Of a DNA stretch of 64,000 nt, positions 58,415 to 61,455 are shown piece after piece (positions within the stretch are counted from its first letter, which is position 1; each line of letters opens with the position of its first letter). Source of the stretch: a virus (lineage: Duplodnaviria; Caudoviricetes); IMG/VR virus record IMGVR_UViG_3300044856_000241, positions 1-64,000 of that record, one strand, 5' to 3'. A program made the translations under genes and the position numbers. Under the pieces are notes generated by a model. It did not search any database and had not been told where the DNA came from. It worked only from the letters and a program-made list of their open reading frames with translations.

Positions 58415-58648
58415 TACGTCTTCCATTAATAGATTCTCCTTCGTTTTTTGGAGTGCGTTCATTTCCACACTCCAATTGGACATTCTTCTTCCTCAGCATT
58501 ACCTGTAGAAGCGAGGTATGTTCCTTGCCATTATATTCTCCGAAGAGTTTCAGGCAATACGTCCATTGGTTGACTGGTATTTTACAATCAGCCTTCACCT
58601 TTGTATTTTCAGCATCTCAGCTTTTCTACTACTTTCACCTCGTTTTAC

Positions 58649-58717
58649 AAGACACACTTCCGGTATCCCATCCGGTTAATTTATTATGTCGAAATAATAA
58701 TTTGCTGTATGTGTCTT
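58649..58717 (-). ncRNA. ACAGCAA hairpin unit 1
   Basis: AAGACACA-T-ACAGCAA...TGTGTCTT. Confidence 0.75.
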
Positions 58718-58725
58718 TCTTATCC

Positions 58726-58779
58726 TAGATACATTTTTCTTTCGATGCTTGGAAATTAATAATTGCTGTGTTGTATCTA
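58726..58779 (-). ncRNA. ACAGCAA hairpin unit 2
   Basis: TAGATACA-AC-ACAGCAA...TGTATCTA. Confidence 0.75.
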
Positions 58780-58793
58780 TATCTATATATTCT

Positions 58794-60314
58794 CTACGCC
58801 ACCAGATCTTTTACCGCATTCTCAACTGGTGCGTATCTTTCAGAATTTAATTGCTCCAGTAAACACTCAAATGGATCTGTACTGTTACTCAATACCATTT
58901 TCACAATTGCAGGACTGAAACCACTTACAAGTGCTACACCAGCCTCATTCTCTTTTACCGGAATTGTGCCAGTACGACTCATGATATTCCAGAATACTAA
59001 TCTTGGAAGTTTATATCCATGAGCTTCATATCTATCAGCCAGTTCTTCGAATAATCTCTTATCAGTACGTCCAGAAGTCATACGATCAAATTCTAAATCT
59101 GAAAGTACCAGTACATTCTGTGGCATATCATCCTGAGTCATCTCATTCCTGATCGCTGTCTGGAGAATCAGATCAAATGTTGCTTCAATATTTGTATTTG
59201 TCATCTCACAATGATTCAGCGCAATCTCAATTTTCTCACGCAATGAATCGGCATTGCTAAAATCAACAATCTGCGGGTGACTACTAAACGTAATATATGT
59301 ATCTTTGAACTGTCCAGAACTTCTCTCTGCAAAGTAAATGGCTAATGCATTTGCCACACTAAGAGCTGTGACATTCGTACCACCAATTCTTGAAGTCATA
59401 CTTCCTGATCCATCAGCTACACAAATTGTATTTCCTGTTCCGCTAACGTAATCAGGCAATGCTTTCCAAAGCTGTTCAAGTGTCGGATCATCAACAGGTG
59501 ACAAGTTCCATCTACTTGAGCCATACTTATGTACAATATCATGCGGGAATAAAACACCGGCATTGATTTTTGTTTCGCCTTTTTCTAACTTATTCAAGTA
59601 TTCTCTACGTCTTTCCTCATCATTTCGTAAGAAAGCATTGTTGTAAATTAGATTTGCTCTTGACGGAACAGCTGCATAATCAATTTTATCCCACTGTTTT
59701 GCAGACATTTTAACTTCAACCACATTCAGGTACGCACGGAGCTCGGATAACATTTTTCTATATTGTCTGTCTGTGAAAATGATGTTATCCATGATGATAT
59801 GTGCCAATCGTTTTGTCTCTTTTGAAGAGGTGTTAGCACTTGGCATCCATTTAGCAAGAAGCGAAATCGGTTTACTCTGCTTCATATTTACACCATCTTC
59901 TAAGAGCTGATGTACTACTACTTCACACACATCATCTTTTAAATCAGTGTCCAATAAACACCATAAATCATCCCAACGTCCATATTCAGGAACCAGTTTA
60001 ATTACTTCCTTGGCAATATCCTGATGATTCTCTGCAAGATATTTTATACAAGTTCTAAACAGTCTTCTCTCGCCAATTCCCTCTCTACAATCACGGCAAT
60101 AAAATAACCATTTCATTGCCAAAATTTTGTCCTCATAGAACGCTTTTACGAACTTTTCAACGATTTTTTCTTCGCTCATGTTCCTCATAGATGATACTGA
60201 AAAGTTTAAATCAAGAAGTTCTTTACCTGATGTTCTATAACCAAGAGCACCATTCTCAGTAACTGAATAATTGAAGTCATCATTCAGTGTTTCTTTTAAA
60301 TTTTTCATAAACAT
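58794..60314 (-). CDS. DUF2828-like protein: helical TROVE/Ro60-like N-terminus plus C-terminal vWA domain
   Basis: TENGA, RDCREGIGERRLF, YGRWDDL, LAKWMPS; MIDAS motif VADGSGSM...TNIEATF...LSDLEFD; LVFWN, LVSGFS. Confidence 0.82.
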   Translation of the reverse strand: MFMKNLKETLNDDFNYSVTENGALGYRTSGKELLDLNFSVSSMRNMSEEKIVEKFVKAFYEDKILAMKWLFYCRDCREGIGERRLFRTCIKYLAENHQDIAKEVIKLVPEYGRWDDLWCLLDTDLKDDVCEVVVHQLLEDGVNMKQSKPISLLAKWMPSANTSSKETKRLAHIIMDNIIFTDRQYRKMLSELRAYLNVVEVKMSAKQWDKIDYAAVPSRANLIYNNAFLRNDEERRREYLNKLEKGETKINAGVLFPHDIVHKYGSSRWNLSPVDDPTLEQLWKALPDYVSGTGNTICVADGSGSMTSRIGGTNVTALSVANALAIYFAERSSGQFKDTYITFSSHPQIVDFSNADSLREKIEIALNHCEMTNTNIEATFDLILQTAIRNEMTQDDMPQNVLVLSDLEFDRMTSGRTDKRLFEELADRYEAHGYKLPRLVFWNIMSRTGTIPVKENEAGVALVSGFSPAIVKMVLSNSTDPFECLLEQLNSERYAPVENAVKDLVA

Positions 60315-60361
60315 AATTCTTTTTCTCCTTTTGAATCAAAATTAGTAGTAACTTTGATTCC

Positions 60362-60418
60362 TAGACGGCATGGAAAATAGATTAACAGTCTATACCAAAA
60401 AATTGCTGTAGCCGTCTA
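60362..60418 (-). ncRNA. ACAGCAA hairpin unit 3 with Asn (GTT) anticodon stem-loop
   Basis: TAGACGGC-T-ACAGCAA...ATAGA CTGTTAA TCTAT...GCCGTCTA. Confidence 0.8.
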
Positions 60419-60431
60419 AAGAATCATTTAC

Positions 60432-60488
60432 AAGATAGCTATATGTTAATATTCTCCGCTTGAATTAAATATTTGCTGTAACTATCTT
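60432..60488 (-). ncRNA. ACAGCAA hairpin unit 4
   Basis: AAGATAGT-T-ACAGCAA...GCTATCTT. Confidence 0.75.
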
Positions 60489-60491
60489 CAA

Positions 60492-60607
60492 CGACAGGAA
60501 CAGGACTCGAACCTGTATCAATGCCTGGACGTGGAATAAATATCGCTGTTAATGTCTATTACAAGACATATTTTTTTCACCGTTTTAACCAATTAAACTA
60601 TCCCGTC
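60492..60607 (-). ncRNA. tRNA-like RNA A; anticodon arm replaced by a motif hairpin (ACAGCGA variant)
   Basis: Acceptor GACGGGA/TCCTGTC, D arm GTTT..AAAC, T arm ACAGG TTCGAGT CCTGT; insert ATGTCT-loop-AGACAT-TA-ACAGCGA. Confidence 0.8.
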
Positions 60608-60684
60608 ATGTGAGTATTCTCATACGGCAATACAAGAATACTCAGCTTGCAACTTATTAACTTACTTCCCACAAAGAAAGGAGC

Positions 60685-60743
60685 TAGACGGTTTTGGTTA
60701 GTAAATTAAAAGTCTTCTCCAATAAGTTTGCTGTATCCGCCTA
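60685..60743 (-). ncRNA. ACAGCAA hairpin unit 5 with Lys (TTT)-type anticodon loop
   Basis: TAGGCGG-AT-ACAGCAA...AGA CTTTTAA TTT...CCGTCTA. Confidence 0.75.
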
Positions 60744-60747
60744 TATA

Positions 60748-60814
60748 CAAGACACTTAGCCACTTGGCATTTGATTTGCAATCAAATTGTTCAATGTTGC
60801 TGTTTTGTGTCTTA
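60748..60814 (-). ncRNA. ACAGCAA hairpin unit 6 with Cys (GCA) anticodon stem-loop
   Basis: TAAGACAC-AAA-ACAGCAA...TTTGA TTGCAAA TCAAA...GTGTCTTG. Confidence 0.8.
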
Positions 60815-60815
60815 A

Positions 60816-60934
60816 TGGAGATGGAGAGATTCGAACTCCCGACAAATGGTTACCCTTAATTAATATTTGCTGTTGATGTCTTATACAAAACACACATAAT
60901 ATTTCCATCGCTCTACCAACTGAGCTACATCTCC
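60816..60934 (-). ncRNA. tRNA-like RNA B; anticodon loop replaced by an ACAGCAA hairpin
   Basis: Acceptor GGAGATG/CATCTCC, D arm GCTC AGTTGGTA GAGC, stem ATGG/CCAT, T arm GGGAG TTCGAAT CTCTC; insert TGTTTT-GTAT-AAGACA-TCA-ACAGCAA. Confidence 0.85.
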
Positions 60935-61012
60935 GTATGAATTCCTTCCTATTATAATAAGGAAGAAACTCATGTTATTTGTAACAATACGTTTTCCACA
61001 GAAAGGAGATCC

Positions 61013-61072
61013 TAGACGGTATCTGGGTTGCAAATTAAAAGTTGTTCCAAAGAAAATTGCTGTTACCGCCTA
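61013..61072 (-). ncRNA. ACAGCAA hairpin unit 7 with Lys (TTT)-type anticodon loop (paralog of unit 5)
   Basis: TAGGCGGTA-ACAGCAA...CAA CTTTTAA TTTG...TACCGTCTA. Confidence 0.75.
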
Positions 61073-61085
61073 TTTTGTTGTGGAA

Positions 61086-61256
61086 TCACCGGATCTGGGT
61101 TCGAACCAGAATCTGCATCGTCCATTAAATTAAAATTTGCTGTAAGCGGATGACTATGTATCAAAAAGAAAAGAGAGGATTTTATGAAAGTATATGTTAT
61201 TTTTTCTATCCGCTTTTTAATTGTGATGCTGTTTTACCAATTGAAACTATCCAGTG
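61086..61256 (-). ncRNA. tRNA-like RNA C; long ACAGCAA hairpin in place of the anticodon loop
   Basis: Acceptor CACTGGA/TCCGGTG, D arm GTTT..AAAC, anticodon stem GCATC/GATGC, T arm TCTGG TTCGAAC CCAGA; insert AAGCGGAT...ATCCGCTT-ACAGCAA. Confidence 0.85.
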
Positions 61257-61260
61257 TAAA

Positions 61261-61383
61261 TTGTAGGGGCTGGATTCGAACCAGCGAAACCATAGGTGTC
61301 AGATTTAGAGTCTGATTTGCTGTTAGTGATTATACCTAATCACATTTTTCTTCTGATGCGTTTAGCCACTTCGCTACCCTACA
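61261..61383 (-). tRNA. tRNA-Tyr-like body with CUA (amber) anticodon and a 41-nt ACAGCAA insertion (tRNA-like RNA D)
   Basis: TGTAGGG/CCCTACA, Tyr-type D arm GCGAAGTGGCTAAACGC, TCAGA CTCTAAA TCTGA, variable arm ACC TAT GGT, T arm GCTGG TTCGAAT CCAGC; insert bounded by an ATCAGA direct repeat. Confidence 0.8.
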
Positions 61384-61391
61384 ATGTAATC

Positions 61392-61447
61392 GAGACACTT
61401 TATTATCATCCGTATTATAATATTTTAACATTTGCTGTTAGTGTCTC
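61392..61447 (-). ncRNA. ACAGCAA hairpin unit 8
   Basis: GAGACACT-A-ACAGCAA...AGTGTCTC. Confidence 0.78.
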
Positions 61448-61455
61448 ATCTTTAC

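What the first reader, a model, noticed from the sequence alone, without database searches (positions are those of the whole stretch)
60492..61256. Three intact tRNA bodies whose anticodon loop is replaced by a circularly permuted ACAGCAA element
Seen: A (60492-60607), B (60816-60934) and C (61086-61256) keep 7-bp acceptor stems, U8-A9, D arms with GG and TTCGA T loops, with no encoded CCA directly after the discriminator. Their anticodon position holds helix-loop-helix-ACAGC(A/G)A. The motif helix is capped by a loop here but closed by the RNA ends in stand-alone units, so the same local structure appears in two topologies. Known: YrlA Y RNAs also place the Ro-binding stem where the anticodon arm would be. 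Inference: these are non-decoding tRNA mimics (elbow + acceptor end), not pseudogenes. They may also give RNase P/Z cut sites that release the neighbouring hairpins.
Basis: partly seen in the sequence, partly recalled or inferred. Interest (0 to 1): 0.85.

Follow-up and report, generated by a model that had tools for sequence, protein, structure and literature searches.

The report
tRNA-bodied Y-like RNAs beside phage Ro60
A 204-kb gut phage encodes four tRNA-shaped RNAs that carry, in the anticodon arm, the same short "handle" (a helix plus ACAGCAA) found on ten neighbouring small RNAs, all flanking a gene for a Ro60-shaped RNA-binding protein. They are most likely tRNA-mimicking partner RNAs of that protein, built in a topology not described for such RNAs.

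Summary
A (60492-60607), B (60816-60934) and C (61086-61256) are complete tRNA cloverleaves on the minus strand. There is also a fourth, D (61260-61384), which the finding does not list. Each has a capped hairpin followed by ACAGC(A/G)A in the anticodon arm.

Ten stand-alone units around them carry the same helix and motif, but there the RNA ends close the helix. All 14 units flank gene 58794-60314 (DUF2828). Its predicted fold matches only Ro60 over its full length.

A covariance model of the stand-alone unit finds 191 hits in 67 related phage loci. All are on the gene's strand and most lie next to the gene. It also finds hits directly upstream of DUF2828 in Bacillus, Enterococcus and Listeria phages. 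In Enterococcus phage iF6 and Bacillus phage Tsamsa the units have YrlA topology. Once circularly permuted, they align collinearly with the window's tRNA bodies (z 9-16 for iF6, against 1-5 as encoded).

Best reading: Y-RNA-like partner RNAs whose tRNA body is an unpermuted tRNA mimic. Protein binding, processing and lack of decoding are inferred, not shown.

The scan's index lists this RNA/protein pairing in at least 142 other genomes. I found no published description of the RNA family. Two papers only speculate about Y RNAs next to homologues.

The parts
60492..60607 (-). tRNA-like body A. X hairpin 60552-60569, then UA, then ACAGCGA at 60543-60549.
   Evidence: ARAGORN -i. Rfam tRNA partial match, 21.6 bits. 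Motif positions.
60816..60934 (-). tRNA-like body B. X hairpin 60876-60893, ACAGCAA at 60867-60873. Outer anticodon stem AUGG/CCAU is retained.
   Evidence: Rfam tRNA 53.8 bits over model positions 1-71 with a 55-nt insert. ARAGORN -i. Fold.
61086..61256 (-). tRNA-like body C. Anticodon stem GCAUC/GAUGC encloses helix 61208-61214 / 61145-61151, which has a 56-nt loop, then U and ACAGCAA at 61137-61143.
   Evidence: ARAGORN -i. Fold.
61260..61384 (-). Fourth tRNA-like body D, not in the finding. The module (ACAGCAA 61317-61323) lies between the D arm and an intact anticodon arm with loop CUCUAAA. The strand AUCAGA is duplicated on both sides of the module.
   Evidence: ARAGORN -i. Sequence.
61390..61596 (-). 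Three stand-alone handle units: 61527-61596, 61454-61523 and 61390-61449.
   Evidence: Model R1, E 6e-9 to 3e-8. Folds.
60683..61074 (-). Stand-alone units 61011-61074, 60747-60815 and 60683-60745. The second starts directly after B's discriminator base.
   Evidence: Model R1, E 6e-7 to 3e-6.
60360..60490 (-). Stand-alone units 60430-60490 and 60360-60420. The first starts 1 nt after A. The second ends about 45 nt before the gene's start codon.
   Evidence: Model R1. Folds.
58794..60314 (-). Gene for a 506-aa Ro60-like protein (DUF2828 + DUF7788/vWA).
   Evidence: Pfam and PHROG phrog_850. AlphaFold2 model, pLDDT 80, pTM 0.73. The 12 best Foldseek PDB rows listed are all Ro60/Rsr, E 3e-7 to 7e-5.
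58647..58781 (-). Two stand-alone units just after the gene: 58724-58781 and 58647-58719.
   Evidence: Model R1, E 1e-6 and 6e-7.
63424..63999 (-). CCA-adding-enzyme-like gene (HD + tRNA_NucTran2_2), same strand, open at the window end. It is context for tRNA-like genes that lack an encoded CCA.
   Evidence: Pfam.

Best explanation
A-D belong to a 14-member array of small RNAs that are partners of the adjacent Ro60-like DUF2828 protein, in the way Y RNAs are partners of Ro60.

The shared handle is the likely protein-binding site. It consists of a covarying helix whose far end reads AAG/CUU, an invariant G, and then single-stranded ACAGCAA. In the ten stand-alone units the handle helix is formed by the RNA's 5' and 3' ends.

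In A-D the same helix is capped by a short loop and grafted into the anticodon arm of an otherwise complete tRNA body. The acceptor end stays open. This is the circular permutation of YrlA-type Y RNAs, where the handle is open and the acceptor stem is capped.

The tRNA body would have three roles:
- It would be cut out by RNase P and RNase Z, which also frees the abutting units.
- It would receive CCA, possibly from the phage's own enzyme.
- It would present a tRNA elbow and acceptor end to tRNA-binding factors while tethered to the ring protein.

Shown here: sequence anatomy, conservation, gene linkage, the permutation relationship and the protein fold. Inferred: protein binding, processing, absence of decoding, and the cellular target.
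For: Linkage:
- Model R1 was built from relatives. It finds exactly 10 hits in the window and in the whole 204-kb genome, all flanking the gene on its strand.
- It finds 191 hits at E<=0.001 in 67 related loci (625 kb, both strands searched). All are on the gene's strand. Most lie within about 700 nt upstream or just downstream.
- In whole-genome searches of Tsamsa, iF6 and LP-064, every hit lies within 2.7 kb upstream of the DUF2828 gene on its strand.

Structure:
- The handle helix shows compensatory changes at all 8 pairs in stand-alone units and at all 7 pairs in embedded ones, with many G-U pairs that only work on the sense RNA strand.
- Cloverleaf stems are 99-100% paired across 20 diverged bodies.

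Permutation:
- iF6 and Tsamsa units read handle 5' strand, ACAGCAA, T arm, capped acceptor, D arm, handle 3' strand.
- Rfam YrlA scores iF6 units at 47.8 and 34.4 bits.
- Permuted iF6 unit 3 aligns with A, B and five relatives at z 9-16, against 1.3-5.5 as encoded.

Protein: Ro60 fold.

Context:
- There are 8 insert-free tRNAs elsewhere in the genome.
- Of 357 ordinary tRNA calls in the loci, only 7 contain the 7-mer.
- A CCA-adding-enzyme-like gene lies upstream.

Literature:
- M. smegmatis YrlA is cut by RNase P and gains CCA (PMC4201824).
- Bas63 gp130, a 36%-identical homologue, was reported as Ro60-like and as a counter to the Ppl defence (PMC11482910).
- Highly transcribed non-coding regions lie upstream of the Listeria phage homologue (PMC12282133).
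Against: - There are no expression, binding or processing data for this phage.
- The proposed AU-rich second helix flanking the module has no support. Own-flank pairing runs average 4.09, against 3.90 +/- 0.14 for mismatched partners.
- D and several relatives keep canonical anticodon arms (CUA, GUA, GUU), and some relatives encode CCA. Some members may therefore still act as tRNAs.
- Neither Pfam TROVE nor a PDB sequence search recognises the protein. The Ro60 link rests on a predicted fold with TM only 0.39-0.55.
- Seed units for R1, and the ARAGORN-chosen bodies, were selected for pairing. Their pairing percentages are therefore partly built in.
Confidence: 0.7

Rival explanations
1. The inserts are a new kind of tRNA intron. 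They would be excised, perhaps with help from the DUF2828 protein, to give ordinary decoding tRNAs. The stand-alone units would be related free elements.
For: D and some relatives have perfect anticodon arms next to the insert: L007 3533-3661 (Tyr GUA, with CCA) and L008/L024/L030 (Asn GUU). D has a duplicated stem strand flanking the insert. Relatives of this phage do carry other inserts in anticodon loops of ordinary tRNAs.
Against: The best possible deletions in A-C leave non-canonical loops (C37, or no U33) and weak stems. The same handle forms the RNA termini in stand-alone and YrlA-topology units, where there are no exons to join. The handle is conserved in sequence across phages of Bacillus, Enterococcus and Listeria and tied to one protein gene. 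That pattern is what a binding site would show. No known ribozyme or intron family matches at E<=10.
Confidence: 0.1
2. The tRNA bodies serve only as processing punctuation. RNase P/Z cuts release the neighbouring handle RNAs, and the bodies have no function of their own. Their embedded modules would be incidental duplications.
For: Units start 0-1 nt after the 3' ends of B and A, and D starts about 5 nt after a unit. tRNA punctuation of polycistronic RNAs is well known (general knowledge).
Against: Ordinary tRNAs would serve as punctuation, yet the bodies upstream of the gene almost always carry the module: 100 ARAGORN calls with an insert and the exact motif across the loci. The embedded handle keeps the invariant G, the AAG/CUU end and ACAGCAA, with covariation, which argues for selection on the embedded copy. 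Unit-to-unit junctions such as 61524-61526 have no tRNA between them.
Confidence: 0.12
3. The handle is a DNA-level mobile repeat (MITE/REP-like) that has landed in tRNA genes and intergenic DNA.
For: It is a short hairpin plus a conserved 7-mer, present in many copies. D has a 6-nt direct repeat flanking the insert.
Against: Strand bias is complete: 191 of 191 hits on the gene's strand. G-U pairs are frequent in the helix. The helix sequence differs in every copy while pairing is kept. There are no hits elsewhere in the 204-kb genome. No transposase lies nearby.
Confidence: 0.03

Closest known systems
YrlA-type bacterial and mycobacteriophage Y RNAs with Ro60/Rsr (Rfam RF02553; Chen et al. 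2014, PMC4201824)
   Same: Encoded beside, and on the strand of, a Ro60-fold protein gene, often in several copies. Modular design: a protein-binding helix plus a tRNA-like domain with D arm, T arm and acceptor stem. The binding module sits where the anticodon arm would be. YrlA-topology members with the ACAGCAA handle exist next to DUF2828 in phages iF6 and Tsamsa.
   Different: Here the tRNA domain is not permuted. The acceptor end is open and the handle helix is capped. The handle motif is ACAGCAA with an AAG/CUU-G helix end, not GNCGAAN0-1G. The protein is DUF2828, not Pfam TROVE. Rfam YrlA gives only a spurious 20.8-bit match spanning two bodies.
[quoted passage not shown]
   Same: A Y RNA whose tRNA-like domain ends up with an open, CCA-bearing acceptor end.
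   Different: In M. smegmatis this comes from cleaving a permuted precursor into two pieces. Here the open acceptor is encoded directly and the RNA would stay in one piece.
D. radiodurans Yrn1 (PMC4201824)
   Same: A Y RNA with the Ro-binding stem at the acceptor position and an anticodon-like arm. This resembles relatives' stand-alone units that enclose an anticodon-like hairpin and a T arm, such as L047 3636-3727.
   Different: That is not the arrangement of A-D. The binding motif also differs.
Thermus phage phiLo Ro60 with Yrl1/Yrl2 (PMC12135203; PDB 9KOP, 9L5Y)
   Same: A phage Ro60 with small RNAs encoded just upstream. 9KOP is the best structural match of the window's protein.
   Different: Its RNAs are described with a CGAA motif, as stem-bulge-stem Y RNAs without complete tRNA bodies.
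Class I RNAs of dictyostelid amoebae (Rfam RF01414; Kjellin et al. 2021, PMC7919456)
   Same: [quoted passage not shown] The paper gives C, C, A, A as near-invariant at motif positions 6, 9, 10, 11, which fits ACAGCAA. The letters of the motif itself (CCUUACAGCAA) are from my memory only.
   Different: They are eukaryotic, with no tRNA bodies. RF01414 matches none of the window's units even at E<=10.
Circularly permuted tRNA-like genes: two-piece tmRNA, permuted tRNA genes of red algae (my own knowledge, not checked here)
   Same: Precedent that tRNA-like RNAs can exist in both permuted and unpermuted gene orders.
   Different: Those are translation RNAs, not protein-tethered mimics.

Membership tests
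YrlA / Y RNA (RF02553) | Encoded near, and on the strand of, a Ro60 orthologue | tested here: met
   All 14 units lie within 1.3 kb of gene 58794-60314 on its strand. The protein has a Ro60 fold.
YrlA / Y RNA (RF02553) | Reaches the Rfam gathering score (69 bits) | tested here: not met
   Only a 20.8-bit match at 61203-61306, which joins the T arm of D to the D arm of C.
YrlA / Y RNA (RF02553) | Ro-binding stem formed by the RNA's 5' and 3' ends, with the GNCGAAN0-1G motif | tested here: not met
   In A-D the handle helix is capped by a loop, and the motif is ACAGC(A/G)A.
YrlA / Y RNA (RF02553) | tRNA-like D and T arms plus an acceptor stem | tested here: met
   ARAGORN cloverleaves. Stems are 99-100% paired with covariation in 20 bodies.
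YrlA / Y RNA (RF02553) | Bound by the Ro60 protein in vivo | not testable with these tools
   Needs RIP/CLIP or EMSA.
tRNA (RF00005) | Covariance-model score of at least 29 bits | tested here: inconclusive
   B scores 53.8 bits with a 55-nt insert. A (21.6) and D (19.6) are partial and below the cut-off. C is not reported.
tRNA (RF00005) | 5-bp anticodon stem with a 7-nt loop (U33, purine 37) | tested here: not met
   The best ARAGORN solutions for A-C give C37 or no U33, with mismatched stems. Only D has a canonical arm.
Ro60 / TROVE protein | Pfam TROVE match, or sequence similarity to solved Ro60 structures | tested here: not met
   Pfam gives DUF2828, DUF7788 and a weak VWA_2 match. Single-sequence and profile searches of PDB sequences give nothing.
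Ro60 / TROVE protein | HEAT-repeat ring plus vWA fold | tested here: met
   The 12 best Foldseek rows listed (ranks 1-13) are all Ro60/Rsr, aligned over 511-577 columns, TM 0.39-0.55. The next hits are isolated vWA domains.
Dictyostelid Class I RNA (RF01414) | Covariance-model match | tested here: not met
   No hit in 58.6-61.6 kb at E<=10 in the whole genome.
Known self-splicing or self-cleaving inserts (group I introns, small ribozymes in Rfam) | Rfam match within the inserts | tested here: not met
   No such family at E<=10 in 59500-62500.

The most novel reading that the evidence does not exclude
The unpermuted, CCA-acceptor-ended tRNA bodies are working baits. Held on the Ro60-like ring by the handle, they and the anticodon-loop-bearing stand-alone units would present tRNA surfaces to host tRNA-targeting defences or repair enzymes. 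This would make a phage-encoded 'tRNA display' particle for counter-defence. The family also preserves both gene orders, and so would document how YrlA-type Y RNAs arose from tRNA genes: a handle inserted into the anticodon arm, followed by circular permutation.
Probability: 0.3. Interest if true: 0.85.

Novelty: new variant of a known kind. Interest (0 to 1): 0.72.

Why it matters
Ro60/Y-RNA particles are conserved from bacteria to humans, yet the role of the tRNA-like module in bacterial Y RNAs is still unknown.

This locus belongs to a large RNA family, absent from Rfam, that travels with the phage Ro60-like DUF2828 protein. About 700 cultured phage genomes carry that gene. They include Felix O1-like, Listeria P100-like, Enterococcus, Staphylococcus and Bacillus phages.

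The window's members show the handle grafted into full tRNAs. This offers three things:
- a defined candidate binding site (helix, invariant G, ACAGCAA) that can be tested;
- natural permuted and unpermuted pairs, to ask what the tRNA module is for;
- a possible RNA cofactor for the reported anti-Ppl activity of Bas63 gp130.

Tried and rejected
- Second (AU-rich) helix around the embedded module: own flanks pair no better than mismatched flanks (4.09 vs 3.90 +/- 0.14). RNAalifold does not predict it. Not claimed.
- My first loose stem counts did not separate real flanks from shuffled flanks. I replaced them with a covariance model.
- Rfam at E<=10 across the locus: only tRNA, plus chance snoRNA and YrlA fragments. 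RF01414 gives nothing.
- PDB sequence searches with the protein and with a 20-sequence profile: nothing.
- TAG recoding as a reason for D's CUA anticodon: TAG ends 20 of 146 long ORFs, and reading through it adds little. No support.
- Sigma-70 promoter scan: no enrichment (14 found vs 15 expected). The four terminator-like sites are all on the plus strand. The transcription unit remains undefined.
- Literature searches for DUF2828 and for phage Ro-like / Y RNA / tRNA-like terms: no description of this RNA family.

Full report
**What is there.** The window is the first 64 kb of a 203,624-bp phage record. All features discussed lie on the minus strand.

Default ARAGORN finds no tRNA in the window. 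With introns allowed it calls four tRNA-like genes: c[60491,60608], c[60816,60934], c[61086,61256] and c[61260,61384].

Each body has a 7-bp acceptor stem, U8-A9, a D loop with GG and a T loop UUCGAxx. Rfam's tRNA model scores B at 53.8 bits over the whole model with a 55-nt insert in the anticodon arm. A and D score 21.6 and 19.6 bits as partial matches. No body encodes CCA, but neither do the phage's eight ordinary tRNAs, so this is not a distinguishing mark.

**The motif and the array.** ACAGCRA occurs 36 times in the window against 13 expected. Twelve copies sit on the minus strand in 60403-61585, and two more at 58702 and 58763.

Ten of the 14 copies are stand-alone units of about 60-70 nt. 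In each, an 8-10-bp stem joins the two ends, and ACAGCAA follows the 5' strand after 0-2 nt. In A-D the strand just before the motif is instead the 3' strand of a capped hairpin.

The consensus sequences show this is one element in two topologies:
- Stand-alone: UAAAGACACU-N-ACAGCAAUUUUA ... GUCUUG, with an invariant G after CUU (A1).
- Embedded: GUGUCUUG-NNNN-AGNCAC-NN-ACAGCAA-N-UUUA, with the same G invariant as the first loop base (A3).

In other words, the embedded hairpin is the stand-alone unit's 3' end joined to its 5' end by two to four bases.

**Linkage to a protein gene.** The array flanks gene 58794-60314. Pfam gives DUF2828 + DUF7788 and a weak vWA match, and PHROGs gives phrog_850 'RNA-binding protein'.

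Sequence searches of the PDB find nothing. An AlphaFold2 model (pLDDT 80, pTM 0.73) matches Ro60/Rsr in the 12 best rows listed, over its full length. These are Thermus phage phiLo, Xenopus, human and Deinococcus Ro60, at E 3e-7 to 7e-5. Only isolated vWA domains follow.

Homologues occur in 705 cultured phage records. They include Bas63 (JohannRWettstein, 36% identity). Its gp130 was reported as Ro60-like and as a counter to the Ppl defence, with the guess that neighbouring tRNA genes might be Y RNAs (PMC11482910).

**Comparative support.** I built covariance model R1 from 60 stand-alone units of related IMG/VR loci.
- It finds exactly the ten units in the window and nothing else in the 204-kb genome.
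- In 67 related loci (625 kb, both strands) it gives 191 hits at E<=0.001. All are on the gene's strand, and most lie within about 700 nt upstream or directly downstream.
- In whole-genome searches of Bacillus phage Tsamsa, Enterococcus phage iF6 and Listeria phage LP-064, every hit lies within 2.7 kb upstream of the DUF2828 gene on its strand.
- The stem shows changes on both sides at all eight pairs. The seeds were chosen for pairing, so the pairing percentage is built in. The variety of pair types and the independent hits are not.

**The tRNA-bodied form is conserved.** ARAGORN -i finds 100 sense-strand tRNA-like calls with an insert of at least 15 nt and the exact motif across the loci, mostly just upstream of the gene. 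More carry variants such as ACUGCAA, GCAGCAA and UCAGCAA. Of 357 ordinary tRNA calls, only 7 contain the 7-mer.

The embedded hairpin has compensatory changes at all seven pairs and many G-U pairs. In 20 diverged bodies the acceptor stem is 99.3% paired, the D stem 98.8% and the T stem 100%, with changes on both sides at 14 of 16 pairs. These are maintained tRNA folds, not decaying pseudogenes. ARAGORN selected them, which inflates the pairing percentages.

**The permutation.** In iF6 and Tsamsa the units upstream of DUF2828 read: handle 5' strand, ACAGCAA, T arm, acceptor stem capped by a loop, D arm, handle 3' strand. That is the YrlA gene order. Rfam's YrlA model scores two iF6 units at 47.8 bits (E 7e-8) and 34.4 bits (E 5e-4), both under its 69-bit threshold.

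I cut iF6 unit 3 in its acceptor loop and rejoined its ends. It then aligns collinearly with A, B and five relatives at z 9-16, against z 1.3-5.5 as encoded. The Tsamsa unit gives z 1.6-7.1 against -0.3 to 2.6. The rejoined ends align with the capped loop of the embedded hairpin.

**What the anticodon region looks like.** The module lies within or just 5' of the anticodon stem.
- In B and C the outer stem (AUGG/CCAU, GCAUC/GAUGC) encloses the module.
- In D and some relatives a canonical arm follows it. Examples are CUA in D, GUA in L007 3533-3661 (with an encoded CCA), and GUU in L008, L024 and L030.
- For A-C, ARAGORN's best deletions leave loops with C37 or without U33, and mismatched stems.

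So 'anticodon loop replaced' is fair for A-C but not for the whole family. 'Non-decoding' is an inference.

**Mechanism.** The best-supported reading is a Y-RNA-like ribonucleoprotein. The handle binds the Ro60-like ring, and the tRNA body is a mimic.

The geometry fits processing by tRNA enzymes. The unit at 60747-60815 begins right after B's discriminator base, and the unit at 60430-60490 begins 1 nt after A. A CCA-adding-enzyme-like gene and a DHH phosphoesterase gene lie 1-2 kb upstream on the same strand.

M. smegmatis YrlA is cut by RNase P and gains CCA in vivo (PMC4201824), which is a precedent for an open acceptor end on a Y RNA. A Listeria phage homologue has three highly transcribed non-coding regions within 2 kb upstream. 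Its authors guessed these might be Y RNAs (PMC12282133).

What the particle does is unknown. Candidates are tethering host nucleases as in RYPER, acting as bait or decoy for tRNA-targeting defences, or RNA repair.

**Negative results.**
- The AU-rich helix I proposed around the module is not supported.
- There is no promoter signal.
- There is no evidence of TAG recoding.
- RF01414 (Dictyostelium Class I RNA) does not match, although the design and the invariant positions given in PMC7919456 resemble the stand-alone units.

**Novelty.** The Ro60/Y-RNA principle is known. The ACAGCAA handle family is not in Rfam 15, and I found no published description of it.

The specific point of this finding is a complete, unpermuted tRNA body with the capped handle in its anticodon arm. 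That is a new variant of the YrlA idea.

The scan's own index lists the RNA/protein pairing in at least 142 other genomes. Another agent's follow-up on D reached a compatible reading.

Noticed in passing
Related loci, not the window: L009:6121-6274, L008:5600-5732, L008:8424-8546, L009:8772-8894, L013:8048-8198: Ordinary-array tRNAs (Ile UAU, Leu UAA, Gln UUG, Lys UUU) have their 7-nt anticodon loop split by a 47-93-nt insert. The insert itself looks like a tRNA minihelix, or a whole tRNA(CUA), ending in ACCA. RNase P plus 3' processing would excise it and leave ligatable halves, which would be a possible new splice route. The window's own phage has none.
   Followed up: partly
window 60376-60392, 60706-60722, 61035-61050, 60770-60790 (minus strand, approximate): Several stand-alone units enclose hairpins with canonical-looking anticodon loops: CUGUUAA (Asn-like), CUUUUAA twice (Lys-like) and UUGCAAA (Cys-like). 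The unit nearest the gene in many relatives has the same feature.
   Followed up: partly
window 62495-63400 and 63424-63999 (minus strand): A DHH/DHHA1 phosphoesterase gene and a CCA-adding-enzyme-like gene (HD + tRNA_NucTran2_2) lie just upstream on the same strand. All tRNA and tRNA-like genes of this phage lack an encoded CCA.
   Followed up: partly
window 61152-61207 (minus strand): Body C's handle helix is capped by a 56-nt AU-rich loop rather than a tetraloop, which makes C 171 nt long. I did not see the same long loop in the relatives I examined.
   Followed up: no
window 60607-60690 and 60935-61010 (minus strand): The two units at 61011-61074 and 60683-60745 are paralogues. Each is followed by a shared CUCCUUUCUxUGUGG segment and a strong hairpin (inverted repeats at 60611-60644 and 60942-60967). 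Their role is unknown.
   Followed up: no
L072:1962-2513 (Listeria phage LP-064): A ROOL RNA match (87.4 bits, E 2e-16, under the 99.1-bit threshold) lies about 1 kb upstream of the DUF2828 gene. An RtcB-like ligase gene lies about 1.3 kb downstream.
   Followed up: no
L069:5376-5439 (Bas63, MZ501086.1 82236-82299): A single weak R1 hit (22.4 bits, E 0.008) with a clear stem + ACAGCAA lies between tRNA-Met and tRNA-Asn, about 500 nt downstream of gp130. The whole-genome search at E<=0.01 did not retain it.
   Followed up: partly
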